Below, piece after piece: positions 13,681-58,939 of a stretch of 64,000 nucleotides of DNA. The stretch lies in the NCBI GenBank assembly GCA_013239625.1, contig MU055594.1:16062445-16126444 (forward strand), read 5' to 3'. The notes beneath the pieces are model-generated. The model saw only the letters and a list, made by a program, of their open reading frames with translations. It was not told the origin of the DNA and did no database searches. Source of the stretch: Lama guanicoe. Taxonomy: Eukaryota. Both the position numbers and the translations under genes were made by a program. Each line of letters starts with the position of its first letter. Within the stretch, counting starts at the first letter, position 1.

Positions 13681-14539
13681 GTGTCTTCAATATTAAGGAG
13701 TCTGCATCCCCTGGGTTCTATGTTGTGTTTATAGTGTTGATATTTTGAGCTCTATAGACAGACATGAGCTCTGTGGACAGTGTGTCAAGACTTGGGAGTG
13801 TCCAGCCTCTTAGTTGTGTGTATCCCCTTGATCTCTTTTCCTTCACTTTTGGCCCTCTCACCCTCCTGAGGAGGTGTTTCCTGTCGCCTGTGGATTGATC
13901 ATCCATTTGGTTTTACCGTTTAAGTATTAATCAAAACGCGATGAAGTAATTCCATGAGTAAAATTAGCCCTTTAGTTACCAGCATTGATTTATAAGATAC
14001 TGTAGAAGTAAAGATAGAAGATGTAATTTTTAGATTTTTGTTTTTATTTATGCAGGAAAACAGATGCATTTCTGTTAACCCACAACATAATCGTCCTCTT
14101 ACTGTCTTGTGTTCACAGATCTGAGCGACAGATGGGCAACCACAAACGTGACCTTATTACACAAAAGTCAGGGACCCGGGAACTTGACAAAACAGCCCCG
14201 GGTAATACTCCCATGATACCCAGTGACCTGTCCTGGCAGACATCAGAAATGGAAGAAGCTAACAATTAAGGAAAAAGACTGACACTGTTAAACAGTCTTA
14301 ATCTAAAGGCGGTAAATTAAAAAGCCATCCTGAGTTTGCTTTAGCCATCCTGAGTTTGCTTTAGGCAGGTAACAATGGAACTTTTCCTTACAAACTGAGA
14401 TGACCCAAGTTTCTGTCCGGAAAAAGACCACTCTACTGATACTTATCCCAGATGATCGGCTTCATCGTAGAAGTATCTTCACCACGTTTCACGGAGATTT
14501 TAAAACCGTCAGCTTACATTCCTTGAAACGCGCTGTCCT

Positions 14540-15110
14540 GCCGACCTTCTGCTCGTCCCCTCCCCGGAAGCCAGCGCGAGGGGCCAAAGCGCTGGGAAAC
14601 AGGTGGCGCAGAACCCGCCGCGGCTTTCGATTGACGCTGCTCCAAGCTAGCCCGCACTGATTGGCTGGTGGGAGGGACCCATCAGGGCTGTCGTTGAGGA
14701 TTGGCTGGTTCGCGGAGGAACCCTGTTTCCGGTAGCTCGGCGCGCAGCCCCGTCGCCGCCATGGCGACCGGCGAGCGGGTGGTGGCGCCGCCTCTGTGGC
14801 CCGTAGAGGCCCGGTTGGCGGCGCTGCTTCCTGACCTGCTGGTCTTCAGGAAGCCCCGGGGACCGGAACCTGAGCTCGCCACGGCCCAGGGCGTCCTTCT
14901 TGGCGTCCACGTGACGGGTGAGGGAGAGAGGAGGCCCGCTGCTCTCCCGACCTGCGGGAGGGGCAACCGTTGGGCCTCAGCTCGTAGGGGCCGCTGCGGT
15001 TATGGGCCTGGCTCCGGAGCGAGCAAAGCAAGCGCGGTTTCACCGCATTTCCCGCCGCCTCCGCCGAAAACCGAGGGTCATTTTCAGAGCAAGAAGCTAA
15101 CCTGACGTAG
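14540..15110 (+). promoter_or_regulatory. CpG island promoter of the ADCY10-like gene
   Basis: Abrupt GC/CpG-rich block. Reverse CCAAT boxes CTGATTGGCT (14657-14666) and GGATTGGCT (14698-14706); ETS-like CCGGAAG (~14564-14570); perfect Kozak GCCGCCATGG (14755-14764). Confidence 0.85.
14761..14917 (+). CDS. ADCY10-like exon 1 (start of C1)
   Basis: MATGERVVAPPLWPVEARLAALLPDLLVFRKPRGPEPELATAQGVLLGVHVT(G); donor G|gtgagg, phase 1. Confidence 0.88.
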
Positions 15111-18100
15111 CCCTGGAGTTCACTTCAGAGATGAGGAAATTGAGGCTCAGAAAAGGGAATGGACTTTTTCGGTGCCATACGGCACACTTTGAACCCAAGT
15201 GTTTTCCAATAAGTATTCCGCCTCGTCTAGTGATTTTATTCACTCAATTAATTCATTCTTTGAGTCCATAAGTATGTACCCGCCATTGTGCTAGGTGTTA
15301 AGAGACCTGGCAGCTACTAGGAGGGTCGTTCATTTAACAAATACTTAGGGAGTTTATGTCATGAATATGAAAATGAGTGATTCAGGTGCCTGTCCTCGAG
15401 GAGCTTACCATATGAGTTCTCCATGAAGCTTTAATCTTGTTACTGGTTTTTCTGCTCTTCATATCTGGGGAAATCCTTTCTCTTGGTCAGAGAGCCTTAA
15501 GAGGGTGTGGCGGGAAAGCAGTAGCTGCATTCCGATGGAAAAGGCTCTTGTGGGTGAATCTTCACCATCTACAGCTCCTGGAAACATGGGAAGGCTGGCC
15601 CTCTGGACTCCTAGAGGCAGCAGCAACCAGCCTGGCCCTGAGTACTTGCTAAGTAACACCATATTAAAGAGTAGAGAAATTACTCAAAAATGAAGAAGAA
15701 GAATTGTGAAATTACTCATATTAAAGAGATCTGCTTTCTTTACACTGTTCCAATGCGAGATTAAGGCCTAAAAGTTTGGGATTTGCAGCTAACAGTAATT
15801 TTTGCTTTGTTGGTCAGGGTTTACAGCATTAATGGACAGATTCAGCCTGAGCTGCAAGTCGGAACATGACATGGACAAACTGGCCCACATCTTCAGTTAT
15901 TACATTAGTGACATTGTGGAGCGTGAGTGACCCTTGTACGGGAACAAGGAAGTGTGGTGCTGGGCTTCTGAGGGTTTGTAACAGAAACAGGCCTGAGGTG
16001 CTTAAAACGGATACTGAAGGTCATTCCTTTAGTGTCACTCATCTTTTATTTCTTAAGGTTGCCACTGACAAGCTAGATCTTTCCATATACCTGCCATTCT
16101 ACCCAATCTCACATCCTATTGACCCAGTGTTCAGAAAGAGGAGGGGAAATGCTAATTTTAATTTTAACTCTGCATGTTTGTATTTTATTTTGAAATGAAG
16201 TATTCCTAAGGCTGTCTCTTTTAACAAAAATACAATGTGCTTCATGTGTGTATATCAGGTATAATTTACAACACACCTCATTTTTTTTTAAATTTTATTT
16301 TATTGAGGTATAAGTCAGTTTACATTGTTGTGTCAATTCATACCTTCCCATTTGGTTACTGCATTTTGATCCTGTGAAGTAGGAGTGAGTGTTTTATTTT
16401 CTGCCATGTATTAAGCTTGTGGATATTTGCCTAATCTAGGAGAAAAACTTATTTGTGCAGTAAACTTGTTTTGAGTACCTACTATGACATACACCGTAAT
16501 AGGTGCAGGAGGTACAGAAACCTACTTTTGAGGCGTTTTCAGTCTAGTTAGGTCTACCTAACAAATTATACTGGCTCTGCACCCTTTAGTACTAATGTAT
16601 GTACATTCCCTTCCTTTACTGACAGTGTCCCATAGTTACTCCATCATTCTGAGATTCACCAGAATAATTACCTTGTGGCCTCTCCTTAAGCCACATAAAG
16701 TGGCTGTTTGACTAATCCCTTACCACTGAGGATTCTGCCTGAGGTCTTTCAATGGACGTCATCAAGTTTAGGGGAAAGGGGGAGATAGAAATTATGTATC
16801 ATGTATGTATTATAACGGAGTTGCTGAGTACTAGAAATACATGGGAAAACAAGACACAGTACCTGCCCTCTTGTAGGTTCCAAGGAAGGAAGATAGTAAA
16901 CAAGATAATTTCAGAGTATGTAGTCTACAAAGGAAATAAATAAGGTGTTGTGGGAAAAAAGAAAAGAATTGTAGGGTGAAAGAGTTTCTGTATTAGGGTG
17001 GTCACAGGAGACATCTCTGAGAAGGTGCTGTGTAAGCTGAGACATAACGGATGTGAGGAACGCTGTGTGTGGAGCTAAGGGTAGAGCATTTCAGGCAGAA
17101 GAATGCCAAGTAAAAAGGTTCTGAGGTGGAGAAGGCTTGGCATGTTCTAGGAACTGAAAAGGCCAGTGTGGTTAGAGCATAGTTAGCAGGGAGAAGAGTG
17201 GCTTGAGGTGAGACTGGAGAGCATCAAGCTCCATAGAACATAGAAGTTTGGATTATTTATTTTTGTATGAAGGGAAACTGTTGAAAGACTCTAGCAGGGG
17301 AGTGATGTGATCTGATTTACATTTTTAAAGCTCATTTTAGCTGTCTCCTGGAGATAGAAACTATGTATCATGCATGTATTTATAATACCAGGAACTGCTG
17401 GGTACTAGAAATACACAGGAAAGTCAGACATGGTACCTGCCCTCATGGAGATTGTTTTATAGGGAACTGATGGAAGGTAGATGGTAAAACTGGACGCTGG
17501 AAGAGGCAATTGGAATAATTGTGGAGAGAAGTTAGAGATTTAGATGAGGTTAGTGGTTCTCTACTTTGGCAGCACGTTAGATAACCACTTAGGAGACTGT
17601 TAAAACTCCTGATGTCTAGACTTCACCCCATATCAGTTAAATCAATATCTTGGGGTAAGCCCAGGACTAAGGATTTTTCTTACAGACAATTTCAGTGTGC
17701 AGTAAAGGCTGAAACTATTAGTCTCAAGGTGTGGTAATGAAGGGAGCTGTATGGAGATGAACTGACTTGAAATATATTTTGCAGTTCAACAGACAGGATT
17801 TTCTAATGTATTGGATTTCCGTGGGAAATGGTGAGGAAAACAATTGTCAACTTTTTTGGCTTATGTAACCGAATTGAAGGTGATGTCACATACCGAGATG
17901 GGAAAGACTAGGCTTTGAGGAAGAAAGTCAAGGGTTCTATTTTTAATATATTGAGTTTGAGATGTTAGTAAGTCAGTCAAGTGAGGCAACGAAGTTAGCT
18001 GTGATTGAGCTTAGAGAATAGATCTTTAGAGATGAAAAGTGAATTGATGGCATAAAGATTTTATTTAAAGTTAAGAACTGATTGAGTCCACATGGGGGGA

Positions 18101-21100
18101 CTGTAAAGAACTCCAAGGGGAGATTGTGATTATGATTAGGGAGAAAGAACCTACAACAGCAACTGTGAAGCAGTCAGTCAGGTAGGCTATTTGGTGTTCC
18201 TGAAGCCAAAAGGGCAATAGTGTCTCTAGAAGGAGAGCGCTGCCCTAGTGGATTGAAAATAAAAGGTGTCAAATACAGTGATATCAGAAAAATACTAAAT
18301 ATAGCAAGATGAATGCTTTGGGTGGTTTTGATAATTTTAGTGAAGTGGTAGAGATGGAAGTTCAGATTGGAATAAACTGAGAATTTTTTTCTTTTGGCTG
18401 GGAATATAACAGAAAAATTGAGCTCATAGCTAGAGAAGAAGGCAGAGTCAAGAATAGGTGGGTTGATTTTGTTGTGTGTTTTTTTTTTACAAAGATATTA
18501 ATGGGAATGATGGCACAGAAAGAACATAAGGAAGGGAGTGAAGTTATTGAGAGGGTGAGGGGGACTAGGATCCAGAGCACAAATAGGGGGATGGCTTTGA
18601 AGATACCAAGAGGGCTTTCCTTCTGTTTTTAGAGAAGTTGGGTATAAGAACAGACATATCTGAAGAGAAGCTAGGGGAAAGGAAGAGGGAGTCTGAACCT
18701 TGGAATGAACAAATTGACCAGAAAAGATACAAAGGGAAACTCAGAAGGCCATTCTTTTCATCATATGTGATTCTGCCATGATCCAGCATATCTGATTTTG
18801 ATTCATTTTCCCCTCTTGCTTGATTTCAGATGTGCTCTGTTTTGGAGGGGATATCCTAAATATTACAGGTATTTCTCAGTTTTTCTGAATATTTAAAGCA
18901 CCCTGAAGTGAGGAAGACTGTATTTTAGGTGGAATTTGGCATGTTTATTCAGCATTGTTTGATTATTTTTCTAAGTGCTGGGCCCTGAGGAAACACAGAT
19001 GAGGAAGACAGTCTCTGCCTCAAAGGGTCTCCCAGTCTAATGGAAAAGCCTTGTCCATGTTAAGCTCCCATGTATTTTACAGTTTGTTCAGATTGACAGA
19101 AAAATAAGTGCCTTTAAAGCATTCGTGAGAAAACTTATGAGAAGCTTGGTCATTAATAACAGAAGCTACATATAGGAGAGGGAGAGGAGTCAAGAGTCTC
19201 CTATCTGGAGAACTCTTGTGATCATTTACAGCTGTGTGCCACAGAGCTGGCCTGTCTTTTCATTTAAACTTAATGAAACCACTTAAAATCTTAAAATTCA
19301 ACTTGAATGTAAACATATATTTTGTGGGCCTCTTAGCTAGTACCCCGCCCCTTCTGTTAGGATACTGGTGGGGAAAGAATTACCAAAAATAGCTTTAAAC
19401 CTTAGGAACATTTCAGCTTCTACTTAGTCATGTTTTTATATGCTCAATGGTTTTTTAAGATTAAGGCAGTATTTTAACCTAACATAATGTATAGGGCGAG
19501 AAACCTTGCGTGACACCTTGCATGATACCTTTTGCATTATTGAGGGTTCTGCCATGGCAAGTGAATTCAAATATTTGATCTCTGTCAGCCTGTCTTGTGT
19601 GTCTACAGGGAATGTGCTCCTTGCACTCTGGACAGTGGAACAGAATCAACTGAGTGACATCATTACCCTGGTGGCAAAATGCAGTCTGGAGATACAGGAG
19701 AAATTTGGCATCTGCCACACCAGAGAAGGGCAGGACCTGCAGTTAAAGATAGGTAGTAGCTATTAAGAGTGATAAGTTGGGGGGGGGGGGGGAAGGAAAC
19801 ATTAAAAATTTTAAAGATAAATGACAACTTGGAAAAAAAATATTTGCGACTCATATCATGTAGACAAAGGGTAAATTTTTCTATAGAAAGAACACCTAGA
19901 AGTTAAGAAAAGACTAACATTCTAGGAGAAAACTGAGCAAAAGAATGAATAAATAGCACATAAACAAAGAAGTCATCTCTTGTAATGTGTGAAAAAACGG
20001 TCAACTTAGTAATAAGAAAAATGCCAATTGAAAGTACATTGAGATCATTCCCTACCTACAAATATGGAAAAATTCAGATGCTGGACACACTGTCGGTGAG
20101 GCTGCGAGGAATAAGCCTTCTTACACAGTGTTGATGGGAGTCAGCAGTGGTGTAACTTCTGTAGAGGGTGATCCAGTCATCTCTACCCAGATTACAAATG
20201 CATTTATTCTTCAGCCCAGCAATCCCACTTCTGAACATTTATCCTATGGGTATACCTGACTGTGCATTAAATATCATGTATATAAGATTATTTATTGCAA
20301 TACAGATTGTGATAAAAGGTTGAAAACAATATCTATAGTAGACTGGTTAAATAAACAATAATATGTTTATTCACTGAGATTCTCTACAGCTTTAAAAAAA
20401 AAAGATGTTCTGATATAACAGTATCTCCAAAACATAGATGAGAAAAAGCAAGATGCAAAGCACTGTGTTTAGTATGCTACCTTTTATGCAAGTAGGAAAA
20501 ATAATAATTTTTCTTATTTATATTTGTATAAAGAAACACTGGAGAGATATATAAGAAACTAATAAAAGTCACCTATTAGGGGAAAATAGTGTAGATAGGT
20601 ATATAGATGGAATCAAGACTTTTTAATGTATATTCTTTATGTAGTTTGGTTTTTGAGCTATGTCATTGTATTACATAATCAAAAATATAATACAATACTA
20701 TAGGAAAAAAGCTGTACACAGAGGCGAAAGTTTCACCAGTGGCAGAGTCAGGATTGGAGGGTTAGCTCTAGACACAAAACTCCAGCTATTCATTTGTATT
20801 TTGAGGACTAGTCAGTAGTGAAGAATCATATTCTGAGTTATATGGCATCTATCCTGTCCTACCATCCTTTTTTAGTTCTTCTGATTTTTGTTTTATTGAT
20901 AGATAATTCATATCTGATACTGTACATAGACATATTTATACAATTTTGAAACCATCACCACAATCAAGATAATGAACATTCAGCACTCACTAAAGTTTCC
21001 TGTGCCCCTTTATAAACTCTCCCTCTCATCCTTCGCCTCCCCATCCCCAAGCAACCACAGCTCTCCTTTCTGTCATTAGAGATTATTTTGCATTTTTAAA

Positions 21101-24100
21101 GAATGTTATATAAGTGATATCATATAGTAGGTACTTTTNNNNNNNNNNNNNNNNNNNNNNNNNNNNNNNNNNNNNNNNNNNNNNNNNNNNNNNNNNNNNN
21201 NNNNNNNNNNNNNNNNNNNNNNNNNNNNNNNNNNNNNNNNNNNNNNNNNNNNNNNNNNNNNNNNNNNNNNNNNNNTATTTATTCACTTTTTGATCAGCAA
21301 TTGGGTTCTCAGGTTTTGACTTGCAAATAAAGCTGTTATGAATATCCATGTACAAGTCTTTGTATGGACATATCCATATGTTTCTCTTGGACAGACACCT
21401 AGACATGAAAGGTCTGGGTCATATAGTAGATGCGTATTTAACTTTTAGAGAAATTGCTAATATTTCTTCCAAAGTGGTTGTACTATTTTACATTTCTACC
21501 AGCAGTGTATGAAGGTTCCAGTCTCTTGCCAATATTTATCCTTGTCTGTCTGAAGAACTTTCTTTAAAATTTCTAATAATGTGGGTTTGCTGGAGATGTG
21601 TTAGTTCAGCTTTTGTGTGTCTGGAAAAAATTCACCCGTTTTTGAAAGATACCTCTACTAGGTATGGAATTCTAGATTGACAGGGGCTTCCCCCACCCCT
21701 TCTTATATTAAAGCTGTCATTCTACTGACATCTAGCTTGTAATGTTTCCAACAAGAAATCCTTATTTTTGTTTCTTTGTATATAATGTCTCTCCCTTTTC
21801 CACCCTAGCTGTTTTCAAAATTTTTTTCTCTGTCACTAATTTTAGGCAATCTGATTATCATGTGCCTTGGTACAGTTTTCTTCATCTTTCTTATGCTTGG
21901 GACCTATTGAGATTATTGGATCTATAGGCTTCTAGTTTTTGTAAAATTTAGAAAATATTCTGCCATTATTTCTTCAAATAATTTTTTCTCTCTTCCTCCT
22001 CCTCTGTCTAGCTACACACATATTAGGCTGCTTGAAATTGTCCAACTCACTGATGCTGTGTTTATTTTTTTTTGTCTTTTTTCTCCCTGTGTTTCATTTT
22101 TGGATGGTTTCTATCGCTGTGTTTTCAAATTTACAGATGTTCTCTTTTGCAATATCTAATTTGCCTTTGATCCAATCTAATGTATTTTTCATCTCAAGCC
22201 TGATAGTCTTCATCCATATGAAGATACCATATCTTCCATGTCCCTACTTGTTCAGTCTTTTCTCTAGGTTCTTGAATATGTAGAATATAGTTGCAGCTTT
22301 TTTAATGTCCTGATCTCCAAATTCTGTCATTTGTATTATTCTGCACTGGGCTTGACTGATTGATTTTTCTTCTAATTGTGAATCATATTTTCCCTTTTCT
22401 TTGCACACCTCGTAATTTTTGGTAGGTGCCAGACATTGTAGAATTTAACCTTGTTGAGTGTTGAATTTTTAAATATTTCTATAAATATTCTTAAACTTAG
22501 TTCTGGAATGTAGTTGACTTGATACTTTCAGGTTTTACTTTCAAACTTTGTTGGAGGGGCCAGAGCAGTGTTTAGTCCAGAGCTAGTTTTGCCCTGTTCC
22601 TGAGTCAAACCCCTTACGGGTACTGTACCTAATGTCCTGTGAATTATTAAGTTTGATACTCTGGCTAGTGGGAATAGGAACTATACCCGGCCCTGTCTGA
22701 TATTAAAGATTGTTCCCTCTAATCTTTTCAGGTGGTTCTTTCTGTAGCCTCAAGTTGTTTCCTCAGATTGATTCACTTATCAGTACTCAGCTAAAGACCG
22801 AGGGAGACCCAGTTCTCTGGAGTTCTCTCTGTCTACTCTCCAGTAGTCACAGTGCCCTACAAACTCTAACCACCTTGGCCCCTCAGATTCCTAGTTCTGT
22901 CTCCTCAACTCGGGGACCCCTCCAGGCTATACCTGGGTTTCTTCTCTCCAAGCTGTGTACTGGAAACTCTCTAGGCAGTGAGCTGGGGTATCAGAGGGTT
23001 CACCTTGTTTGTTTCTCATCTCTCAAGTATACTGTCCTTAATTACTTGATGGCCAGTATCTTGAGAACTGTTGTTTCTGTTGTTTCGTGTCTTTTTTCCC
23101 GGTTCCATGATTGTTCCAGGTGTTGTGGTAAATTTACTACCTGTTATTCTGTCTTGGCTAAAAGTATATGTCTCTGCCGTTCTTTTAAAACTACTTTTCG
23201 CTTGTTTTTAGTGTAGATTGGGTGACTGACTTACCTAAGGGCAGACTTCTCTTGGTTATAGGCATTTCTTTTCTGGCAAGCAAACCAGTTTTTCAGCCCT
23301 ATTAGCAGTAAGAAATCCAGGGCAAGAAAAACAGGAGGCAGAATAAAAGCGTATGGCAGAGCCCATGCCTGGTAAAATAGTGATTGTCTACTGTCTCAGT
23401 GCTGCTTACATGTGAGGAGGACTGGTGTGGTCAGCAGTTTCTGAGCATAACCATTTGGTCTCTGCCATCAGGACCTAGCTGTCCTTTAGAAGAACAATTT
23501 AGAAACAAAACTCTCAGACACCTAAGATCTCTTTTTTCTTCCCTCATACAACTCAGGCTTATTTGAATGTCTGTCTCTAGGTGTGTTTAAGACAAAGAAA
23601 TCTGGAGCAAGGTGTTACTTTTGAGATTGCGCTCACCTAATACTTCATGGCAATAACGAGATTGGCATGATGCATAAAACCATGTGAGGATTCCAGACCC
23701 CGCCCTTTGCAAAGTTTTCCAACTGAGTTTGGCTGTTCATCACGTGTCTCCTTTTTCCTGGATAGGTCTGTCTGCAGGACGGATTTCCCAGGTTATTGTT
23801 GGAGACGAGCAGCGACAGTACCTCTTGGTGATTGGGCGGGATGTGGACGGTGTCCAGTTAGCTCAGCGTTTGGCTCAGGCAAATGAGATTGTCTTATCCT
23901 GGAACTGCTGGAAGCTCTGTGAACAGTACATGTTTGAAGTGGAAATCATGAGGGAGGACGAAGCTGTGAAGGTAGGAGGCTGCTCACATCCATTGAATGT
24001 CCTGCAGAGGCCTTCCTACTACCCGGGGAAGTGCTCTGGTGGTACTCACACATGGCCTGACCAAACCAACAAATGTTGGAACTCTATTTTAGAGGGAGGC

Positions 24101-27100
24101 AGGGAATATTCTCCCAGGAAGATAGACGAGGCAGAACAGTAAGGCTGGAAAGATAAGAGATAAACAAGGGAGTTGGCATCCTCAGCCCCTCTGTTAAGGA
24201 ACCAAAGGTAATCCAGTTGGTGGGTGGGCACAGAATTGAGCAGTTCCTTTCTGTAGTTAAGAGATATGCGGATCAGTGACCCATTTGATTTCGATGAGCA
24301 TTTTGACAAGTGCCTGGATTACCTGCCACATTACCGGACAAGTGCTGGTAAGTTACTTGGCCCTTTGTATCCAATACCAAAATTTCAAAGATTAATTTTT
24401 CACATGCATGGAGACATTTTGTTTGTTTTCCTTTTCTCAGACATTCTAAGAACAGCCCTGGAGTTGGATCCAGACTCTGCACTTGAGCAAACCCTGAGGA
24501 AGCACATAATGAAAAGCCTTCTGAAGAAGGTTATTTTGTAGTTCTTGAGTCATCGTGTAGACTGTGTGTTTGTGTAAAGAATGTACATTTATATGTGATG
24601 ATCATTTGTACTGATCCAGTTCACCTCCTGCTGCCCATTTTAGTACCAGCAGATTTTCTCATCTGCATCAGTTACTACAGTGACATGTCTTACAAGTTTA
24701 GATTTCTCAGTCCTAGAAAGCAGAAGCCATATTTGTTTATGTTTGTCCCTCTAGAAGCTGGTACACTATAAACAGGTATAGAGTATATGCTTGGTAAATA
24801 TGTGTTGATTACATGTATCTGAATCTATGTGAATCCCTTAGTGAGCGATTTAATGGCTAGGAGAATTGGACATACCAAACTAAGTCTTAGAAAGGAAATA
24901 TAAAAGCATAGCAAATTTCATCAGTGAATTAGTTTTAAAGTCAAACAGTTTTAACTCCAAGTGTACTGGTTGGTATATCTTCCATACTGCTTGAACCTGA
25001 GTTTTAAGTTTTTTGTCTAACATCCATAAATTATTTTCTCATGTTTACCATGGAATATTGAATTTAAATGCCTAAGCATGATAGTGAAAGTTGAAGATAC
25101 AGACAAGGTAACTCACTGTGTCTTTGTAGATTGATGAAGGGCAGCCTATGGAGTATATATCTGAATTCCGTACCGTGACTACGGTTTTGGTCAGCCTAGA
25201 GCTCCGCAAGACAGAATGGATGTTGCATTTGTGTCATCTTATCCAGGAGGCTGCCTTATACATCTCCACAGTGATAGAGAAAGGGGGTGGCCAGCTGAGC
25301 CGGATCTTTATGTTTGAGAAAGTAAGTACAAAGGAATTTGACACATCAGCATTAAAGGTGAGTGAGGAATAATAGTCTTGTATCACCAGTTTATTTCTCA
25401 CATAACACAGGCATAAGTCAGATCCTCGGCTGCTTATTTTGTAGCAAGCTATATTACATTAAAACTTCAACTAGTAATAGTTAAGGAAAGAGATGTTCTA
25501 GTTAATTTAATTTTCAAGGTAACTAAGGGTTACTCTCCATATCCTTTTTAAATCTATCGTTGTTGAAAAAAAATCCTTCTGAAGGCATAAAGAATGTTTT
25601 TATGGCTCTATTAGTAAAGTATATGTAATCAAATCTTTCTCATAAATTTAGGAGCTTGAAAAAGAGCAGTATTGTAATATTTGACATTCTAGGTGAAGAA
25701 AATAGAAGCAGATAGAGTTAGCTTAAGTTGGACACTAAAAACTGAATTTTTGAAAAGTTCTTGACATCAGTTTTTCTCATGTTTTGAATTTCAGTTCTTT
25801 AAATAGCTAAATTAAGATTTTATTTCTTCTTCTTTTTAAAAAAATGTCCGTGTTGCTGTGGCCTAGCGTGCCCATTTCATGAATCTTATAGAACCCTACA
25901 TTCCTAACAGAAAACCAGCTAGGAAGAAATCTGGAAGGAGTCTGGGTTCACTAAGGGAAATTGGTGCAGTGGACGCAAGCCATATTTCTTCCCCAGATCA
26001 AGTTCCGTTTTCTTTCTCTGTCATCTATTTCAGGGCTACATGTTCCTCTGTGTTTTCGGACTTCCTGGGGATAAGAAGCCAGATGAGTGTGCACATGCCC
26101 TGGAGAGCTCCTTCAGCATCTTCAGCTTCTGCTGGGAGAATCTTGCTGAGACCAAGTGAGGAGGAAGGTGGGGCAGAGAGGAACTTCTCAGGCCCAGGGG
26201 GCTCTTCAGGCAAGGAAGGAGGCAGTAGCAAGTAGCAGGGGTTGAGGGCATCTGGAATCTGCCCAAAGGGGAGAGAGGGAACATTCTGAGGATAGTCAGA
26301 AAACAAAGTCTGTTAAGAATCACTGGATACAGAACTGTGTACCAGATACCCAGGGGAAATGAATGCAAGTTTCCATCCAGTGGGGTAGGAGAAGGGGAGG
26401 GACACAATATGCATAGCAAGATTCAAGAACATTGCGAAGGAACAAGCAGATGTGGAAATGAATATAAAAATAATGTATCTGTATGTGGAAGGAAGGCTGC
26501 CCGTCTGTGGGGAGGGGCGGCATGGGAAAACAAATTGTGGGGCAGTAACCTAGATAGGAGGGACCACAGCTGGTTAATGCTCTCCTTCTTGGCTTTCGCT
26601 TTTGGTCTTTCCCAGCCCTACTAATTTTTCTGGAATTCACACTGAACTGACCTCCTGCTCTTTTTATCTATAAAATAAGGAGTTGGATCAGAAAGCCTCT
26701 AAGTTCCTTTTCAGTATTACTGCCTTTTTAATGGTATCACTGAATTTTATTTATTTTTTTTTTTATAATGGTATCACTTTAGTAAGATATGCTGTTCCTT
26801 TGGGGGAATATCCACACAGGATTTGAGGACAGACGATCTGGGTTTCGTTACCAGCTCTGCTATACGCTAGTAACTTCTCTTCTGTGGCCTTAGTTTCCTC
26901 ACGTGTAAAAGAAGGATACAAATATTCACACTAGTAGCATATACTAAAGTATTCTATAAATGTTAAAGCATTGTGTAAATGTATGACACAGTTTTTATTC
27001 ATCTTGAATAAGTATGGCAAGCAAACAAATCTCTGACTTAGTGTTGACATTAGAAATAACTTTTCAAATCTATTCACTTTCCCCATAGTTTTCTAGTGAA

Positions 27101-30100
27101 AAAAAAAAAAGGCCATTTGAAAAATTCCAACCAATCTTATCATAGTTGCGCTAAGGAAAATGGAAATTTTCTATACTTCATTAGGATTAGGCTTTTGTAG
27201 GTGGGAGGGACCATTTTGCTCCTTTTGACTATCTCCCTAATATTCAGTACTGTGTACCCATCATGTGATGCAGACTGACAGCAGCTTCTGGCCTTTTCCA
27301 TTTTGAGCTCTAAACTAGACTTCTGGATCCAGAGAGTGGCACGTCTAGTGTCTGACTTAGAGGCTTCTGAGTGCATATTTACTCACTGTTGTTTTTCTGA
27401 TCCCCAGGCTTGTTTCCATCAGTATCACCAATGGACCAGTATTCTGTGGCATGGTTGGGGCAGTAGCAAGACACGAATATACAGGTAGAATAGGACATTG
27501 GACTGTTAGCTCTGTGACTTGTTAGAGGGGTGAAGGTGGAGGAGTTGGTTCAAAAATTCTCCATCCTTTTCTTTACTTCTCCCTGATACAGTTATTGGCC
27601 CAAAAGTGAGCCTTTTGGCAAGAATGATAACTGCTTATCCAGGTTTGGTGTCCTGTGATGAGGTAACATATCTAAGATCTATGCTACCTGCTTATAACTT
27701 CAAGAAGCTCCCAGAGAAAATGATGAAAAACATCTCCAACCCAGAGAAGATGTATGAATATCTTGGCCATAGAAGATGTATGTGAGTGTCATTATGTGAT
27801 ACTTCACTCCCATCTCTTTATAGTAGCAGGGCATAGGAATAATCAGTGCTTGATTATATGAAATTAGAAAGAAAGATGCTTCTAGTGCTGGCCTGCTAGA
27901 ATAGGAAACGTAAGTGGAGGGTTTCGTGTCTGAGAGCTTCAGGTTTTATGTGTCAGTGAGCTTCTTGCTGTCCAACAGGAAGAGGATCGCAGTAGCTCAC
28001 TAATCTAGATGTTCTTTTTCCTTTGTATACTTCACAACCTATTTACTTTCCTGAGCCTGGAGCAGTCAATGCTTTTTCTCCCCTTCCCCCACCAAAAACA
28101 TTTTTTTCACTTTTTAAAAAACTCTTGTACAGAACTCCGGACCTCTTTAGTTGTCTGAAATACTTGTTTATGAGGACAACTTGCCCTCTGTCTATTTAGA
28201 GATGTATTATCTATCCATCCCAATCTATTTTTAATTGAAATGTTTCCCTTTGTCCTTTTTTCCAGAATGTTTGGGAAGAGACATTTGGCCAGAGAGAGAA
28301 ATCAAAATCACCCATTGTTAGGTAAGTTTTCTTTTTTACCTTTAATCATATTTTTTTTCAGCTGTAGATGGTTACATATGATTTCAAAAACAAAATGCGA
28401 GACTAAATGCTTCTAAACTTTTATTAAAAAATAGATTTATTAGTGAATTTGTTAATTTTGAAGTGGATTTTCCATTTATTTTCCATGTTGAATGTTTAAA
28501 TTTCAAGTTGGGTCCTATCACTTTGCCTGAGAAGTGCCAACATTTAGTAAGAATCTTTGTAAGTCAGAGTTAAGCTATTGAGGTCTGATCTGCTTGTTGT
28601 TGATCATCTTAAGGGGGAAATTTCTCATTCTGAAATAGTAAAGATAGCACCGACACTGTTCCACCCATACTGTATATCCCGATCTTTGTTTTATCTACTT
28701 CTATTCGTCCATTATTTTCATGTGGTGGTGACAGACTTTAAACACTAAATTGTTACAATGGAAATTTTTACAAAAAGCTAAGAAGATATGATAGTCTCCA
28801 TGCCCATGTGCTGCCTAACTGTTCTAAATGTTATTACTTGGGCTTTGGAGCAAGCCCCTCAAGCCCAACACACATTTCTGTATCATGAAGAGTTGATTTT
28901 CTAGAAAGAGATGTGAAGGTTCATCAAAGAATGGGATTCTGTCAAAGATATTGGGGGAGAAGCCATTCTGAGAATCACCTTTGTAAATTAATTCAAATAA
29001 ATAAGTGTCTGCTAAAAACCACAGGTGTTAGGTGCTCCCTGTCTCTCTACAGACCGGGAGAAAGAACTAGAAGCCTTCCAAATGGCACAGCAGAGATGTT
29101 TGCACCTGAAGAAGGGACAAGCAGTTCTGTATGAAGGTGGAAAAGGCTATGGAAAAAGTCAGCTGTTGGCTGAAATAAACTTCCTGGCCCAGAAAGAAGG
29201 ACACAGGTAAAGACTTGTGCTATGCACCTATTTGTTTTGGGGCTCCTTTGCCTCGTTGGTGAGACTCTTGTGTTGTTAGATTCAGAATCATTGGGCTGGT
29301 GGAGTGAATAACCTCTCTGTGGATCAGGGGACTCCCAGTGACCACAGTAACATTCATCAGGGTGTTGCCACTGAAGCTGAAGGAAGCAGATTCCAAGCAG
29401 CGCTTCTATGCCATCCAGACCCTCATGGCTATCTTCTTTGAGATTGATACATGCCCAGCCTGTTACCGGCAAGAGTGCCTCTTCAAACAGCTCCATGGGA
29501 TGGTGGAAGAACCGCTTCACTGTCTTTTTAATGACCTCTTCTTCGTGAAGGTAATGAAGGCAGTAGCTCTCTGAACTGGATTATTTGTATTTTTGGTGGA
29601 TAGTTGGACCCAGGATTGTCTTCTAATCTAACACCTGTTGGCCATATGTATATGCATCGTTTAAGAACAGATAGTTAGGAGTGGCAGGATCAAGATTTGA
29701 AAAGCCTTTGACACCAAAACCCAGGTTTTTTCCTTTTTTGAGAAGAGTGGATTCTAGGACTGACTCTCAGTCTTGCTAGCTGTATGTCTTGGCACAAATC
29801 ACTTAGCCTCTCTGAGCCTCAGTTTTTTTTCAACGGTGAAATGATGATGATAGTACTTTATATGGGTTTTGCATGAATTTTGTAAAGGATGTAATATATA
29901 AGAGATTGCATTGTAAATGTGAAAGTGCTAAAATTTGTCCAGGTGATACTGACCAGTCGAGCATCTCCAACAATTACATCCACGTGTTCTTGAGTCAATT
30001 GCAGTGTTCTGTTTTTTAACCTTACCTGCCCTACCCCAGGCCATGGAGTATGTCACTTGAACTAGCATCTGAATCTCAAAAGCTTCCAGTGGTCTAGGAT

Positions 30101-33100
30101 TTATGCGGTCTCCAGCAGCGAGTAGGCTAAGAATTCCTTGGTCCACAATTCCATTTATTCATCTTCCATCACTTCTCCTAATCTACCCCAGCATGCAGGA
30201 TGTTGTATTGAGTGAAAAATAGGAAAAATGAAAATTTGTCCAATCCTTCAGCATAGCACTTGCTTAAGCCAGGCCTTACCTGGGACCCTGGCCAAAGCAG
30301 TCAAGTAATAGGCTCACTTTGGCTCTCAGGTCCATGATAGCTCATGTGCCAGCCTGACACAGTGTTGGAGACATCCACTGCGATTCTTTCTCACAAGTGT
30401 CATGCATACATTCATTATAGTATACTTGGAAGCATGGGGGTACTGGAGTTGTCCAAATTGACATTACTAAGTCTCACCTGTCACTTTACTCCTTAGTCAT
30501 GATCCTTTAAAGATTTGCCAGAGTCTGGTATGGAAAGGAGCGCGCTCTCTCTAACTACCAGTGGACTTTCAGTCTGCCCTCTGAACTGTATATGGATGTT
30601 GGATTAGTATTTGTAACCCTATGCCTAGTCCTGTGGAAAGCTATTCTCACTCAAAATAGAATCATTTTCTGTTCCCTTTTGAGAACCTGTATATTTTTAT
30701 TAGATTGTTATTTTGAAAGATAATATCTGAATAATTTTCCCGGTCAGTTTCCCTTATCCTTCAGAGTTTCACACATGGATGACCTGGCCAGACAAAAGAA
30801 GGTTAAAGCATGTTTTTTTCAAGTGCTTCAGAAGGTGGGTACTTTTGCTACATGCCGTCAACTCTTAACATGTGCAGATAGTTTATGCTCATTTTAATCT
30901 ATCTCTATCATACCTTGACTTAGGCATTTCTTCATTGTTTGTATCTATCTTTTTAAAAAATTTTGTATATATATATTTAGATTTTTTTTAATTTTATTAA
31001 TTTTTTTGGTGGGGAGGAGGTATTTTTTTAAAGTGTATATGAGTGGGGCATGGTAACTGGTAGTTTTAGCAAGCACTCCTAGGTGATTCTCATATGCAGC
31101 CTGGTCTGGAAGCTGGTTTAAAATACTATGAATTCCCACAGTTTGAAGCTTTTGCCAAAATGAAATATTTGAAAGCTTCATATTTGATTTGGAGAATATT
31201 TTGATGCTCATTTCATGTTTCAGTTAGAGTATTTTCTTGTTCAAAGAAACTCGGTAGATTTCTTTAGGAATTAGATATACAGGCTATATTTTATATTTAT
31301 GAAGTAAAATATTACCTGGACTTAGGATACATTTTACTCTGAAAATCCCAGCCTATGTTGACATTTTACTTAAAATTGTTGATGGGAAATTTATGGTAGA
31401 TTTCAAAATAAAGTGACTTCATTTCTAATCAGAGGTTGTCATTGTTTCCTTGCTGTTATTTCCAGGCAGTGAGGGAAACACCGCTGATATTCCTCATTGA
31501 CGAGGCCCAGTATATGGATGCAGCTTCCTGGGAGTTTTTGGGAACATTGCTCTCCAGTGTGCCCATCATCATGGTGATGACATTGACCCCCACCTTCGCC
31601 CTGTGTGGCTGGGCCCAGCACTTCCTGCAGAGCCCTCAGGCCATCCTTGTACCCATTTTGAAGTTGGCAGAGACCTCACTGCTGAGAATGGCATGTTGGG
31701 AACTGGGGGTGGTGAGCATCCCCCAAGAGCTACAGATGTGAGTGGCTAGGACCAGCTGGGCACTTCATTAAGGGAGGAGCCGGTGCCATAATATAAGTGA
31801 GAAGGCTCAGGTCTCACCAAAGTTGAGGGAGAGAATGACGTTAGCGACCATGGTGAGGCCCAAAACTAGATTTAAACGTAGACAGTCTCCTAGTACCCAG
31901 TAAAGGACTATCTCCCTGGGCCGTTCATCCAGGTTTTCACAGGTCTGTTAGGACCTGGATGACTTGCTTTACATGTCCATTATGTGTGGTCAGGCCAGTT
32001 TTTGTCAGGCCCTTTAGCAAGGGGATGTTAGTTCCTTTTAACATCAATAGAAGGAAGATAGTTAAGAGAAAAGTTACTGCCAAAATACATTTCAAAACCA
32101 ATCAGAAACTTTTTTTAACATTTTTATGCCAAGGCTTCCTTCTGTTAGTGTATATCATCAAGAACTGACTTTAACAACCGAAGAAATATTCCTCAGTATG
32201 AAATACCCTTATGCTTGGCTTTCTTCAAGTGGACATCTTTAGTCAGTGGACATCTTTAATCCCCTACTTACCTCTCTACAGCTACCTTCTCCGCAGGTGC
32301 TTTGGAAACCCCCTTTACTGTGAGGTCTTATGCCAGGACCTTCTCTCTAAGAACATATTGCTCTTTCATGACCTCCAAAAGGAGGAGGTGGAGACTAGCA
32401 AGTGGGAGACCCTCTCAGGTAAGCTGAGTACCCCAGGGTTCTACCCTGGTCCTGCTGCTGGAGTTCATTCTTGACCATGGCATCACCTGGCCCTTATGAA
32501 GCATGTGTCTATTCCCTGCTGGCATCATAAGCAAGGTTAGGCCTTCCTGGCTAAGTGTACTATACAGATAATATGTAGTTATGTTGAAAACACTAAATCC
32601 CTGCCTCAGGTAAAGTAATTGAGTCAATCTACTTTAGTTCCTTTTTGAGCAGCCCAGGAGGTGAAGATAGGAAAATAGGATTTATAAACATCAGAGTCCA
32701 CTAGAAAGGATTGATAAACTTGAGAGTCCAATAGAGAATTGCACGTTACTGATGAGAAGGGTGACGTGGTAAATCTGAATGAGGAATGGAAGAAGGGAGG
32801 AGGAAAGAGAGAGAAGTATGTGTAAAATCCAGAAAGGCATCCTGGAGCTGTGAGGTAGCAGAATCAAGGGCTGTTGGAAGGTAAACAGGAAGGGTGAGAA
32901 TGTTGGATACCATGTGGTACAGAAAATGTTGTTCATTTCTAAGAGAAAATTAGAGAACCGGCAGGATGGGTGGGTAAACCACTTTAAATCTTATAGCTCC
33001 TTTCATCTTAATCCTTTTAGTTTCTTGGCTAAATTCTTGTATTTTTGTATCTTTAAAACCACAGTCTCTAAGCATGGCATTTTCCTCAGTCGTAGTTTTC

Positions 33101-36100
33101 TTTTCCTACAGCCAATGCCATGAAATCCACAATGTATAGTATTTCTCCTGCCAGCTCTGAAGACCAGGACCTTTATGTATGTACAGTCAAGGATGATGTA
33201 AACTTGGATACAGTGCTTCTCCCACCATTATTAAAAGGCAGGTCCCCTAAAAACCTCAAGTAAACCAATTACAGATATCATTGCACTTAGTAATTTGGTG
33301 GTTGATTGAGTATAGGTCTCTCATTATCATGCTAGCTTTATTTCTTTAAAAAAGAAACCTGCCTTCCAGAAATAAATTTTGGCACTACCAGAAGAGCTCT
33401 TAAAGACTTGTAATGCTATCTGAGTAATGATTTACTTAAGTAAGCCCACTGTTCTCTTTGAGGCTGACTGATTATCTGGAAAAGTTTTCTAGTTATTTAA
33501 TAAAAATTATGTCCTGAGTTTCCCTTTGTGCATGTTCCTGTGCTGGAGGAGACAGTGAACAAGGGAGACAATGTTACTGAAGTTTAAGAAAATCCATGGT
33601 GGTAGTGAGGAGACAGTGTTACGCACATAGCAGGAATTTCATAAAAAGAGTACAAAGAAAGTTTATAATGAATGATGAGATAAAGAGTAAAGAAGCCATC
33701 AGAATTGGGTAGATATAATTAGAGAGGATCTTCTTCTTAGAGACAAGGAGGTTTTGGGGTTTTTTTTTTTTCCTTAATATTCTATTCAGGTATTTGGTGG
33801 GCAGGGTACTTTGCTAACCTTCTTGAGGAAAATTATGATGAATAAGTAGGCCTTCAAGTCAAATATGTTCTTGCTGAGAATATAGGATATGCATATGAAA
33901 CAGCAGTACAGAACACCTTGGTAATTAAGAGCCAGGACTCTGGGGTCAGAAAAACCTGGGTACCATTGGCTCCTCCACTTACTGGCTGTGAAACCTTATA
34001 TAAACTTAGATCTAAGTCTTAGTCCTCTCATCATTCAAATGGGGTTAATGATAGTTCCTACCTCATGGGGTTGGTTGAGGATTAAATCAAATAAATCATG
34101 GTGCATAATACATATTCAATGAATGTTAGCTATTATAAGCTATTCACTCTGGTGGTTTTAGGTCCATCTGGACAGTTATATACCTACAGCCGTGATAGGC
34201 CACACTTAGCATTGGCTTTACTAACTTAGAAGCATGCAGGTCAGGAAACAGCACTCTAGCAGAACAGCAGCAAGTGGTTTTCTTCAGTGGGAATCCCCAC
34301 ATCAGTTTCCACTGCTATCTCTGGAGCCTCAAGGAATAGCTTAGATGTGATGGAATGAGGTCACTCATCTCTCCTGGATGAGTGCTTGGATGCCCCATTT
34401 CCCAGCTAGGAACTGGCATCTCTTATAATAGCCATCTAGGCATAGCCTGCAGGCCCTGCCAGGAGTGTGACCTGTCACAAGAATTACTATACCCAGGGAA
34501 GCCCAAAGCTGTGGCTTACCACCAGGTATTTGTACCTTATTCACAGTTCTCCTAGTCCAAATTCAACTTCCTATGAGGGATCACTCTTAGCATAAGCAAT
34601 GTTACCTGGTAACTCAGCTGGCATTCTAATTTTATCAGGGTTCTGGGAAAATAGCTAGAAAGTTAATCCACATGGAAAGAAAAAGCTAAAATGAATCGTT
34701 CAGTCAGCAAAGCCTTGGTCTAAATGAAAGGCCAAAGCTAAATTGCGAAAGGCCATATAAGTTATAAGAGTATTTAAGAAGGGTGCTGGCATGATTATAT
34801 TTGTACATGAGGCGTATAATCCAACCACTAGTTAGTGTGTCTTAGGGCTAAGAATGAGAGGAACTTGGAGATGTTCAAAACAGAGTAGTATGGTGATCCA
34901 GGTGAAAATGACTGCTTATAGTAAAATTGTTTGGGAAGAATCATATTCAAGATTATTTAGAAAGATAATGAGCAGATGACTGGTGGTTGTGAGGGAGAGG
35001 AAAAAGTTTAGAATTATTCCAAGATTTTGGGCTTGGTGGCTTACTGGTCAGAATATGGAGAGATTTAGTAAAATACTTTAGTTAATTCAGATCTTTACAG
35101 TTATTTGAATTCTGGGACCTGGAAGCCAACCTCAGTGTTTAGTTGAAAGTAGGAGGAAAATGGGAAGAATTGTTAGTACAGGATTCAGAACACAACTTCA
35201 GGTCTACCAACAAAAGGTTTTGGTGACCATGAGGAGTACAGTTTCAGTGTTTTGGTGAAAACCTGATTGTTGGTTGAATAATAAATGGGGAATGGGGACA
35301 AAAGAGGACATGGAGATAAGGCTCTTTCAAGAGATTTGGCTGAGTGAAAAAGGAGTGGGCAAAAAGCAAGCCTTTTTTTTAAATGAACACAATGTATTAT
35401 TAGCACAATATATTCTACGTTTGTAGAAAGCTTATTCATTGCTTTTTTTTTTTCCTTCAGAAATAGCAGTGAACCAACTGGATCAATTGAACCCAGAGGA
35501 ACAGTTGCTGGTTAAGTGTGCAGCAGTCATCGGTCACTCCTTCCACATAGATCTACTGCAGCACCTCCTGCCTGGCTGGAGTGAAAATAAGCTACTTCAG
35601 GTGCTGAGGGCTCTTGTGGACATACACGTGCTCTGCTGGTGCAGCAAGAGCCAAGAGCTTCCTGCTGAGCCAATATTAGTGCCTTCCTCTATCGAGATTA
35701 TTGAACAAACCAAAGAGAAGAGAAAGCCAGGTGAGGAAGAGCTATTTATTCCCTTGTTCTCAGGCCCAAATAGAGAGCTTTGGGTGAGGGTATCTGTGTT
35801 CAGAAAGAGCATCCGTATCATAGATCACAGGCCCACTCTCTTAAAGCTTATGTCTAAGAAATTGGGAAAAGTGCTTATTTTAATCATGGAGGAGCCATGG
35901 TTATAGTAAATGAATGGCCTTTGTTTTTTAGAGTTGTCTTAATTTCAAGAATTCTAGTTCCTTGTTAACCCCATGTGTTAAGTATTTGTGTTTTGATTTT
36001 TGGTTCAAAAAATATTGCCATAGTCTTTTATTGGCTTTTTGGGATAAATAAAAAGAAAAAAAGATGAACTATTTCTAATTTTAGAAGGTTATAAGGAAGT

Positions 36101-49013: not shown

Positions 49014-49162
49014 TACAAACAAAAATCATCTGAAGGGACCATGATTCTTTTATTATATATAACACAAAGAAAAGTCCCAAATTCTCCTTTTTAAGATATT
49101 GTGTAGTGTGCATATTAAATATGCTAGCTGCTTACAGTCACTGCTGTCGATAGCTTTGCCAA

Positions 49163-57800: not shown

Positions 57801-58896
57801 AAGGACACTTTTTCTGTTTTTAAAACTGAGTGAGTGGAAGGAACTCAGGCACCTAGTGTACCCTGCCTGTAGGTGAGGCACGTATTAGATGCTCAGGGAA
57901 GACTTGTAAAACTAAATAAGATGTAAATCAGTAATTTTTAAGCCATCAAACTCATTATTACAGTAATAAAAACCTGGCAGATATTTTCAAAAAACTAATT
58001 CCAGTTCATACACCTGAATTAAAACTTTGTTTAAAACATTTCTAAGGGAAAAAATAGCATCAAATATGTAGAAAGCCAAGGCCATGGGTGGGGAAGGAGG
58101 ATGTGCCTTCCTGTGGGGAAACCCACTGTGCGGGAGGGGAAAGGAACTGCTTGGCTGCTTTATCTCAGGCATCTCACTGGTTTGGTTTCCGTTCCCTGCA
58201 GAGCTGTCCAAAGGAGATCCCCCTCCCGGTTCCTCCCTGACAAGGGCCCCCACCCCACAAGGACCCCAGAGCAGTAGGTAGGGACAAGAGGGCAGGTCGG
58301 AGGGGTGGCCAGGCTAGGATAACTCACCTGCAGCGTGCACGTTCAGAGTGACTCTGTGCACAGTCTGGGGCCCTGAGTTTCCCTCCACCAGGCAGCCATA
58401 CTCCCCAGCATCCTCCTCCCGCAGGGAAATCATCTCCACCTGGAGCAGGCCGCCACCCAGGTCAGTGAGAAATACGCGGCTGCTGGCTGGGGCTCTGCGA
58501 TCCACGGCTGATGACACCAAGGGCTGGCACCCCTCCCGCAGGAAGCGACACCACACCTTTCGAGCCTTGATGTCTTGGAGTCGGTAGTGGCACTGCACCT
58601 GGATGGAGCTCCCTACAGGCACCTGCAGCAACTCAGGGAGGCTGCCAGCCAAACCCTGGCCTGGGGAAGGAAAGTCACCGGAATGTTGGGCAGGAGCTGG
58701 GGGCACCTCCTGGCCCACCCACTGCACAGGGCACAGGGATCTAGAGATCCTTCTAGGCCTACACATAATGGTAGTTGCCATGGTAATGCCAGTGATTCCT
58801 GGGCATCGAGCGGGTTATATGGGGCCCAGAGTGCAACTCCTTCTGAACATTACCTGCTAGTCCCAGGAGCAGCAGCAGGAGCAGGTTGGAGCCCAT
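54554..58896 (-). CDS. TREML1: TREM-like transcript 1 (TLT-1), 6 exons, about 307 aa: 58896-58854, 58660-58328, 56350-56233, 55853-55765, 55253-55210, 54850-54554
   Basis: Signal peptide MGSNLLLLLLLGLAGQG; Ig-V domain (VQCHYRLQDIKARKVWCRF...EEDAGEYGCLV); stalk; TM LIWGAVLLVGLLVMAAAVLLAVMAKKK; proline-rich tail with TTYSNL and VTYATV motifs; all junctions GT-AG and in phase. Confidence 0.96.
55210..55253 (-). CDS. TREML1: TREML1 exon 5
   Basis: GNRLGQFQSNGVPGT|gtaaga, 44 nt. Confidence 0.88.
55765..55853 (-). CDS. TREML1: TREML1 exon 4 (transmembrane)
   Basis: SRPLIWGAVLLVGLLVMAAAVLLAVMAKKK|gtatgt; CAGCAG tandem acceptor. Confidence 0.93.
56082..56107. repeat. (TGCC)n tetranucleotide repeat in TREML1 intron 3
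   Basis: tgcctgcctgcctgcctgcctgcctg. Confidence 0.9.
56233..56350 (-). CDS. TREML1: TREML1 exon 3 (stalk)
   Basis: APGLEKEGEKTHHVGSLADSSSSNPVGSANPLDPSQDEK, 118 nt. Confidence 0.9.
58328..58660 (-). CDS. TREML1: TREML1 exon 2 (Ig-V domain)
   Basis: 333 nt, phase 1-1, QGLAGSLPELLQVPVGSSIQVQCHY...TLNVHAA. Confidence 0.96.
58854..58896 (-). CDS. TREML1: TREML1 exon 1 (signal peptide)
   Basis: MGSNLLLLLLLGLA(G)|gtaatg, 43 nt. Confidence 0.93.
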
Positions 58897-58939
58897 GGCT
58901 GGGCAGGGAGATGTCAGCTCTGGAGCTTGCCTGGGCACT

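What the first reader, a model, noticed from the sequence alone, without database searches (positions are those of the whole stretch)
18859..23857. Both bicarbonate-sensor residues are neutralised (K95->N, R176->Q)
Established: bicarbonate activates sAC by binding between K95 and R176. Seen: GGDILKFAG reads GGDILNITG (AAT 18859-18861) and DDVRLAQ reads DGVQLAQ (CAG 23855-23857), aligned without gaps from the exon boundaries. Inference: both cations are replaced by amide residues, so the paralog should be bicarbonate-insensitive and the pocket may have been repurposed for another ligand. Loss of this regulatory site is separate from loss of the catalytic site.
Basis: partly seen in the sequence, partly recalled or inferred. 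Interest (0 to 1): 0.7.

Follow-up and report, generated by a model that had tools for sequence, protein, structure and literature searches.

The report
Ancient dead copy of sperm cyclase
The two changes are real and lie in an intact, well-conserved second copy of the sperm bicarbonate-sensing enzyme gene; this copy likely makes no cAMP and likely ignores bicarbonate, but one change is likely the old vertebrate state rather than a loss and the other reverts in some mammals, so the pocket was probably not rebuilt for a new ligand.

Summary
In detail: Asn at K95 (AAT 18859-18861) and Gln at R176 (CAG 23855-23857). The gene is an intact 32-exon, 1591-aa ADCY10-like paralog at the locus of human ADCY10P1; canonical ADCY10 lies elsewhere in the genome.

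1. N95 is not specific to this paralog. Fish, amphibian, crocodilian and most turtle sACs with intact catalytic residues carry N95/R176. The paralog predates the mammal-reptile split, so N95 is likely inherited and K95 was gained in mammalian ADCY10.
2. Position 176 is Gln in 57 and Arg in 6 of 63 placental genera (ADCY10: Arg in 73 of 73), and it is among the least conserved catalytic columns.
3. R176 acts through D99, and D99, D47 and N412 are replaced too, so the two losses are linked.

The more interesting object is the gene itself: an amniote-wide pseudo-cyclase, as conserved as ADCY10, which one paper calls an apparent pseudogene. The scan's earlier notes describe sAC-like pseudo-cyclases only in a bacterium and Naegleria, not this gene.

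The parts
14761..49013 (+). ADCY10-like paralog (ortholog of human ADCY10P1), 32 coding exons, 1591 aa: C1-C2 pseudo-cyclase, STAND-type P-loop NTPase, helical C-terminal part
   Evidence: (in-frame model, 97.7% to P0019), stop codon; Pfam PF00211 and PF13191 on the dromedary ortholog
14902..14910 (+). Exon 1 codons G (for F45, pocket wall) and H (for metal-binding D47)
   Evidence: G in 49 of 50 and H in 50 of 50 genera covered
18830..18868 (+). Exon 3 (39 nt), with N95 (18859-18861) and T97 (18865-18867)
19611..19613 (+). AAT, Asn for catalytic D99, the salt-bridge partner of R176
   Evidence: N in 53 of 53 genera covered
19746..19748 (+). AAG, K144 (pyrophosphate receptor), retained
   Evidence: K in 58 of 58
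23766..23971 (+). Exon 5, with V167 (23828-23830, retained) and Q176 (23855-23857)
25301..25318 (+). C2 residues R (for K334), F336, M337, F338, E (for D339)
27609..27623 (+). NxxxR motif, read as S412...R416
   Evidence: S in 53 of 54, R in 52 of 54
29133..29159 (+). Intact Walker A motif EGGKGYGKS of the STAND-type NTPase domain
   Evidence: GKS in all 53 genera that cover the whole motif, of 63
14400..15200 (.). CpG-rich stretch over the start codon (probable promoter)
   Evidence: GC 0.53-0.71, CpG o/e 0.76-1.05
7557..7724 (+). NFYA exon, upstream neighbour (synteny marker)
   Evidence: Pfam PF02045, E=2.6e-14
58317..58983 (-). Ig V-set gene, downstream neighbour (TREM-like; the name TREML1 is recalled)
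   Evidence: Pfam V-set E=3.6e-5, below the curated cut-off

Best explanation
The two residues belong to an intact, conserved ADCY10 paralog that likely arose before mammals and reptiles split, is predicted to be catalytically dead and bicarbonate-blind, and likely works as a non-catalytic scaffold or switch protein (pseudo-cyclase plus intact P-loop NTPase). N95 was likely inherited from the N95/R176 sAC of early amniotes, while mammalian ADCY10 likely gained K95 later. R176 likely became dispensable once its only known output, the salt bridge to D99, was gone. It was then replaced (Gln in therians, His in platypus) and can return to Arg. The pocket likely persists as part of the C1-C2 interface, not as a site for a new ligand. 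Shown: residues, reading frame, conservation, tree position. Inferred: no catalysis, no bicarbonate response, direction of change, scaffold role.
For: Intact ORF.
A predicted model of the anteater ortholog (pLDDT 86) matches human sAC with TM 0.94 over the target, rmsd 2.0 A.
D47H, D99N and N412S are fixed in placentals: 50 of 50, 53 of 53 and 53 of 54 genera.
Conservation equals ADCY10 in 27 shared genera: catalytic region 0.958 vs 0.946.
The paralog clade joins mammals, turtles and crocodilians with SH-aLRT 100 and 97; a mammal-only duplication is rejected, AU p=1e-89.
N95 in the active-type (non-paralog) set: turtles 18 of 23, crocodilians 4 of 4, amphibians 3 of 4, fish 4 of 5; in reptile paralogs 11 of 17 (2 Thr, 4 without the motif). 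PMC12867704 Table S2 lists N/R for fish, a caecilian and most reptiles.
Site 176: 57 Q and 6 R, and 86% of catalytic columns are more conserved.
R176-D99 switch: PMC12250328.
Walker A and Walker B are kept.
Against: Polarity at site 95 rests on a by-eye parsimony margin of one step (6 vs 7 N/K changes on the tree; 7 changes including one Thr). The site toggles: birds 7 of 7 K, non-gecko squamates 18 of 21 K, lungfish K. The three-way amniote split is unresolved (AU p=0.50).
N95, V167 and F336 are invariant and G45 nearly so in placental paralogs, which also fits a preserved pocket.
The six R176 genera are all among the 13 most divergent of 63, so reversion may mark relaxed lineages rather than tolerance everywhere.
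D99/R176 coupling is imperfect: Pelusios and Alligator paralogs and bird sACs lose R176 with D99 intact.
No activity, binding or tissue data exist here, and the scaffold role is untested.
Confidence: 0.68

Rival explanations
1. The former bicarbonate pocket has been repurposed for a neutral ligand. F45G enlarges it, N95 and Q176 supply amide hydrogen bonds, and the ligand controls the P-loop module.
For: G45 (49 of 50), N95 (53 of 53), V167 (63 of 63) and F336 (62 of 62) are fixed in placentals; Q176 is shared with koala. In human sAC this pocket binds neutral fragments through the V167 and M337 backbones (PMC4506562), and a lactate complex exists (PDB 8IL7).
Against: N95 is shared with ordinary sACs. 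Site 176 reads R, Q, H, W or S across the clade. F338S occurs in 6 cetacean genera and M337V in 2 genera. 59% of catalytic columns are invariant anyway among shared genera, so invariance at a few sites is expected.
Confidence: 0.13
2. The selected function sits in the old catalytic site. The paralog binds a nucleotide (ATP or cAMP) without turning it over and acts as a sensor; the bicarbonate-site changes are incidental.
For: K144 (58 of 58) and R416 (52 of 54) are kept while the acidic metal ligands are fixed as H47 and N99; V406, V411, L345 and F336 of the adenine pocket are kept. A solved cyclase-like ATP-binding protein exists (PDB 6YII; title only). This reading is compatible with the best explanation and refines it.
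Against: The base-recognition site 334 varies (R 49, Q 12, G 1); A97T and F296L reshape the adenine pocket; koala has R144/Q334/G412, platypus differs again.
Confidence: 0.25
3. The paralog is still an active cyclase, regulated by pH like fish N95 sACs.
For: N95 is the residue of pH-regulated salmon sAC (PMC12867704); fold, K144, T405 and R416 are kept.
Against: Both metal-binding aspartates are gone in mammalian copies (H47; N99, or R in platypus). Salmon sAC keeps D47 and D99 (Table 1).
Confidence: 0.04
4. The locus is a decaying pseudogene and the residues drift.
For: PMC2532759 calls the second sAC locus an apparent pseudogene; human ADCY10P1 transcripts are untranslated (PMC5940861); orangutan models are short.
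Against: Open 1591-aa frame here; full-length models across placentals, koala and platypus; conservation equal to ADCY10; an unnamed Logan protein (P0063) spans exons 3-9 without gaps on a 1078-base contig, that is a spliced transcript of some mammal.
Confidence: 0.03

Closest known systems
Mammalian soluble adenylyl cyclase ADCY10 (sAC)
   Same: C1-C2 fold (TM 0.94 to 5IV4), domain order with P-loop NTPase, 45% identity over residues 1-469, V167/F336/M337/F338 pocket walls, K144, T405, R416.
   Different: H47, N99 and S412 at catalytic sites; N95 and Q176 at the bicarbonate site; G45, T97, L296, R334, E339; a separate locus (ADCY10 is on contig C6462).
pH-regulated N95/R176 sAC of salmon, and related fish, amphibian, turtle and crocodilian sACs (PMC12867704)
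   Same: Asn at position 95; predicted insensitivity to bicarbonate.
   Different: Those keep D47, D99, N412 and R176 (salmon has been shown active); the paralog has lost them.
Human ADCY10P1 (6p21) and RefSeq 'adenylate cyclase type 10-like' of other mammals
   Same: Same neighbourhood (NFYA; TREM cluster); the protein is already annotated automatically in many mammals.
   Different: The human locus is non-coding. Here it is intact and conserved, and the clade reaches koala, platypus, turtles and crocodilians.
Degenerate class III cyclase domains, e.g. the Pseudomonas cyclase-like ATP-binding protein (PDB 6YII)
   Same: Cyclase fold; by its PDB title an ATP-binding cyclase-like protein (Foldseek E=8e-13).
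   Different: Bacterial, 11% identity, unrelated origin; nucleotide binding by the paralog is untested.

Membership tests
sAC/ADCY10 protein family (by descent) | Tandem C1-C2 class III cyclase fold | tested here: met
   AlphaFold model of ortholog P0111 (91% identical to the window protein over 633 aa); the top 24 PDB hits are human sAC
sAC/ADCY10 protein family (by descent) | P-loop NTPase (STAND-type) after the cyclase domains | tested here: met
   Walker A GGKGYGKS and Walker B FLIDE kept; PF13191 E=1.7e-6 on the dromedary ortholog, below the curated cut-off
sAC/ADCY10 protein family (by descent) | Nests among vertebrate sACs in a tree | tested here: met
   Inside the amniote sAC clade, SH-aLRT 100
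Active class III adenylyl cyclase | Two metal-binding aspartates (D47, D99) | tested here: not met
   H47 in 50 of 50 and N99 in 53 of 53 genera covered
Active class III adenylyl cyclase | NxxxR motif (N412, R416) and base-recognition K334 | tested here: not met
   S412, R416 kept, R/Q334
Active class III adenylyl cyclase | Measured cAMP synthesis | not testable with these tools
   needs an enzyme assay
Bicarbonate-activated mammalian sAC | K95 and R176 side chains | tested here: not met
   N95 and Q176 in the window; ADCY10 has K in 70 of 70 and R in 73 of 73 genera
Bicarbonate-activated mammalian sAC | V167 and M337 backbone contacts and R176-D99 switch | tested here: inconclusive
Pseudogene ADCY10P1 | Disrupted reading frame or relaxed sequence | tested here: not met
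   No stop in 1591 codons; conservation equal to ADCY10
Pseudogene ADCY10P1 | Locus between NFYA and the TREM cluster | tested here: met
   human position from PMC9107640 and PMC5940861 passages

The most novel reading that the evidence does not exclude
Amniotes carry an overlooked, roughly 300-million-year-old pseudo-cyclase sister of sAC, under selection as strong as ADCY10 in most mammals but lost in humans and mice. It binds nucleotide in a rebuilt active site (H47/N99/K144/R416) and signals through its intact STAND switch. Its N95 is a fossil showing that bicarbonate sensing was gained in mammalian ADCY10, and separately in lizards and snakes, by a repeated N-to-K change.
Probability: 0.3. 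Interest if true: 0.72.

Novelty: new variant of a known kind. Interest (0 to 1): 0.45.

Why it matters
sAC is the bicarbonate sensor of sperm and a contraceptive drug target. A second, conserved, probably dead family member is present in livestock, carnivores and rabbits but absent or broken in mouse and human, so the usual models would miss it. It could matter for cAMP signalling, antibody cross-reaction or inhibitor studies in those species. The N/K toggle at position 95 makes the origin of bicarbonate sensing directly testable, for example with the two gecko copies (one N, one K). The narrow claim of a repurposed pocket gets little support.

Tried and rejected
Mammal-specific duplication from a K95/R176 gene: rejected.
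Origin in the early vertebrate genome duplications (my first idea, from the 1q/6p positions, recalled): not supported, because fish and amphibian sACs fall outside the clade holding both copies.
No probabilities for ancestral states are available, so the direction of change at site 95 stays a by-eye parsimony reading.
Expression: no RNA holder listed for the exon searched, and no read-level data were obtained, so tissue, level and exon 3 inclusion in this species stay open.
dN/dS could not be computed because no ortholog DNA was held.
The careful (bootstrap) tree did not finish; both trees are quick trees with SH-aLRT only.
Kleinboelting et al. 2014 was not held and is known here only through citing papers.
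Literature searches for a description of this paralog as a protein or pseudoenzyme gave only the 'apparent pseudogene' sentence in PMC2532759 and human lncRNA or GWAS papers; subscription journals are not covered. PMC12637877 was a false hit ('ADCY10 lof'). The two chicken papers listed were not read.
No complex prediction was run, since no binding partner is claimed.
Full report
1. Observation. Exon 3 (18830-18868) gives GGDILNITG with AAT at 18859-18861, and exon 5 (23766-23971) gives DGVQLAQ with CAG at 23855-23857. Exon 5 aligns without gaps to human sAC 147-214, so Gln sits on Arg176.

2. The gene. Using an annotated dromedary protein as guide, 32 exons from 14761 to 49013 join in frame into 1591 residues without a stop; all introns are GT-AG except one GC-AG. 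The product is 97.7% identical to dromedary 'adenylate cyclase type 10-like' and 37% to dromedary ADCY10 (45% over 1-469). Canonical ADCY10 lies on another contig and keeps Arg (CGC) at 176. The neighbours are NFYA and an Ig V-set gene, matching human ADCY10P1 at 6p21 (passages of PMC9107640 and PMC5940861). [quoted passage not shown]

3. It is not a pseudogene in most mammals. The exon-5 search gave 132 hits and listed 120. I used 87 of the 120, grouped into 63 placental genera, and left out 9 unnamed rows and 24 extra isoforms; positions in poorly matching neighbourhoods were masked. For ADCY10 I used one protein for each of 73 genera. In 27 shared genera the mean majority-residue frequency over the catalytic region is 0.958 for the paralog and 0.946 for ADCY10. 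Both sets were ranked by likeness to a camelid exon, so very divergent copies are under-sampled. An AlphaFold model of the anteater ortholog matches human sAC structures first. An unnamed Logan protein covers exons 3-9 without gaps on a 1078-base contig, so a spliced transcript exists in some mammal.

4. The catalytic site is rewritten. D47 is His (50 of 50 genera covered), D99 Asn (53 of 53), N412 Ser (53 of 54), K334 Arg/Gln/Gly (49/12/1). K144 (58 of 58) and R416 (52 of 54) are kept. D47 and D99 coordinate the metal in human sAC (PMC4506562 passages; PMC12867704 Table 1), so loss of activity is a strong inference, not a measurement. The Walker A and Walker B motifs of the NTPase domain are kept.

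5. Position 95. Asn is invariant in placental paralogs (53 of 53) and present in koala and platypus. But it is not a mark of this paralog. Among active-type (non-paralog) sequences, N occurs in 18 of 23 turtle, 4 of 4 crocodilian, 5 of 9 gecko, 3 of 4 amphibian and 4 of 5 fish proteins; K occurs in 7 of 7 bird, 18 of 21 other squamate and 5 of 5 non-placental mammal ADCY10 proteins (names; rows include isoforms). PMC12867704 (abstract, passages, part 1 of section 9, section 12, parts of the supplement) reports K95N as common in fish and shows that salmon sAC is pH-activated and bicarbonate-insensitive; it notes a conflicting earlier report on trout. A tree of 44 full-length proteins groups the mammalian paralog with degenerate turtle and crocodilian copies (SH-aLRT 100; 97 on the catalytic region with a mixture model). 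A mammal-only duplication is rejected (AU p=1e-89). The reptile copies have N95 in 11 of 17 rows (2 Thr, 4 without the motif), and 6 of 7 outgroup rows have N. By eye, N at the duplication node needs 6 N/K changes and K needs 7; the tool counts 7 changes including one Thr. The margin is thin and the amniote split is unresolved (AU p=0.50), so I put N95 as inherited at about 0.8. Either way the change is ancient and N95 is compatible with an active enzyme.

6. Position 176. ADCY10 has Arg in 73 of 73 genera. The paralog has Gln in 57 and Arg in 6 of 63: rabbit, three geomyoid rodents and two Old World monkeys, at least three separate returns since pika, squirrels, lemur, loris and orangutan have Gln. 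86% of catalytic columns are more conserved than this one. Further out it reads Gln (koala), His (platypus), Arg (most turtles, saltwater crocodile), Ser (Pelusios) and Trp (alligators). Gln, His and Trp are what CpG decay of an Arg codon would give (inference; ortholog codons were not seen). Against my reading, the six Arg genera are all among the 13 most divergent of 63, so Gln may matter where selection is strongest.

7. Not separate from catalysis. In human sAC, bicarbonate works by pulling R176 off D99 so that D99 can bind metal, and this is described as the only known activation mechanism (PMC12250328, parts 1-2 of 3). Mammalian paralogs lost both partners, and turtle copies mostly keep both. 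The coupling is not strict: Pelusios, alligators and birds lose R176 with D99 intact.

8. Repurposed pocket? The pocket in human sAC is formed by K95, R176, the V167 and M337 backbones, F45, F336 and F338. In ADCY10 these seven sites show 1 departure in all (V167M in one genus). In the paralog they show 15 departures: 6 at 176, 6 at 338, 2 at 337 and 1 at 45. F45G would enlarge the cavity and is nearly fixed, which keeps the idea alive, but a site tuned to a new ligand should not be looser than the original. I give it 0.13.

9. Mechanism. Most likely this is a pseudo-cyclase-STAND protein that makes no cAMP, is blind to bicarbonate, and acts as a scaffold or switch; nucleotide binding in the old active site is a possible refinement (0.25). 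Tissue and partners are unknown.

10. Novelty. The gene is annotated automatically in many genomes and its human remnant is known. In the held library I found no paper describing it as a conserved pseudoenzyme or tracing it to reptiles (search listings only, subscription journals missing). The scan had no note near this place and only unrelated pseudo-cyclases elsewhere. Interest 0.45, carried by the conserved dead paralog and by the N/K toggle, not by the pocket claim.

Noticed in passing
P0249 (coelacanth XP_064420120.1) vs PMC12867704 supplement: The paper scores coelacanth as K95/R176, but its aligned stretch lacks the GGD motif and looks like a mis-predicted exon; the record P0249 reads GGDILNFAGD, that is N95.
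   Followed up: partly
P0424-P0479 (lizards, snakes), gecko pairs P0418/P0446, P0420/P0433, P0423/P0463: 18 of 21 non-gecko squamate sAC rows have K95 (with R176), like mammals, and three gecko genera carry two active-type copies, one N95 and one K95; Chrysemys and Malaclemys have K95 duplicates. This suggests repeated gain of the bicarbonate site; the PNAS table lists no K95 non-bird reptile.
   Followed up: partly
P0253, P0254, P0255, P0489-P0492, P0496 (birds): Rhea, kiwi and goshawk sAC-like proteins keep K95 and the catalytic aspartates but have Trp or Cys at 176, sit on long branches and occur as many near-identical copies in rhea and goshawk.
   Followed up: no
window 24348-24440: The 93-nt intron 6 is open in frame (31 codons) and is kept in cetacean RefSeq models of the paralog; it falls in the C1-C2 linker region.
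   Followed up: no
window 33238: One GC-AG intron (GC donor after exon 18).
   Followed up: no
window 25313-25321 (orthologs): Six cetacean genera have F338S, and ruminants plus cetaceans share K340T, in the C2 loop next to the pocket.
   Followed up: no
window 49114-49168: ATTAAA and AATAAA polyadenylation-like signals 100-150 bases after the stop.
   Followed up: no
one search hit list: No muroid rodent among the 120 listed paralog hits (12 not listed), while squirrels, kangaroo rats and gophers have it; orangutan models are short. This fits separate losses in mice and apes.
   Followed up: no
P0397 (platypus paralog): Long branch, Arg at D99, His at 176, and no match to the Walker A pattern used; it may be diverging or decaying.
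   Followed up: no
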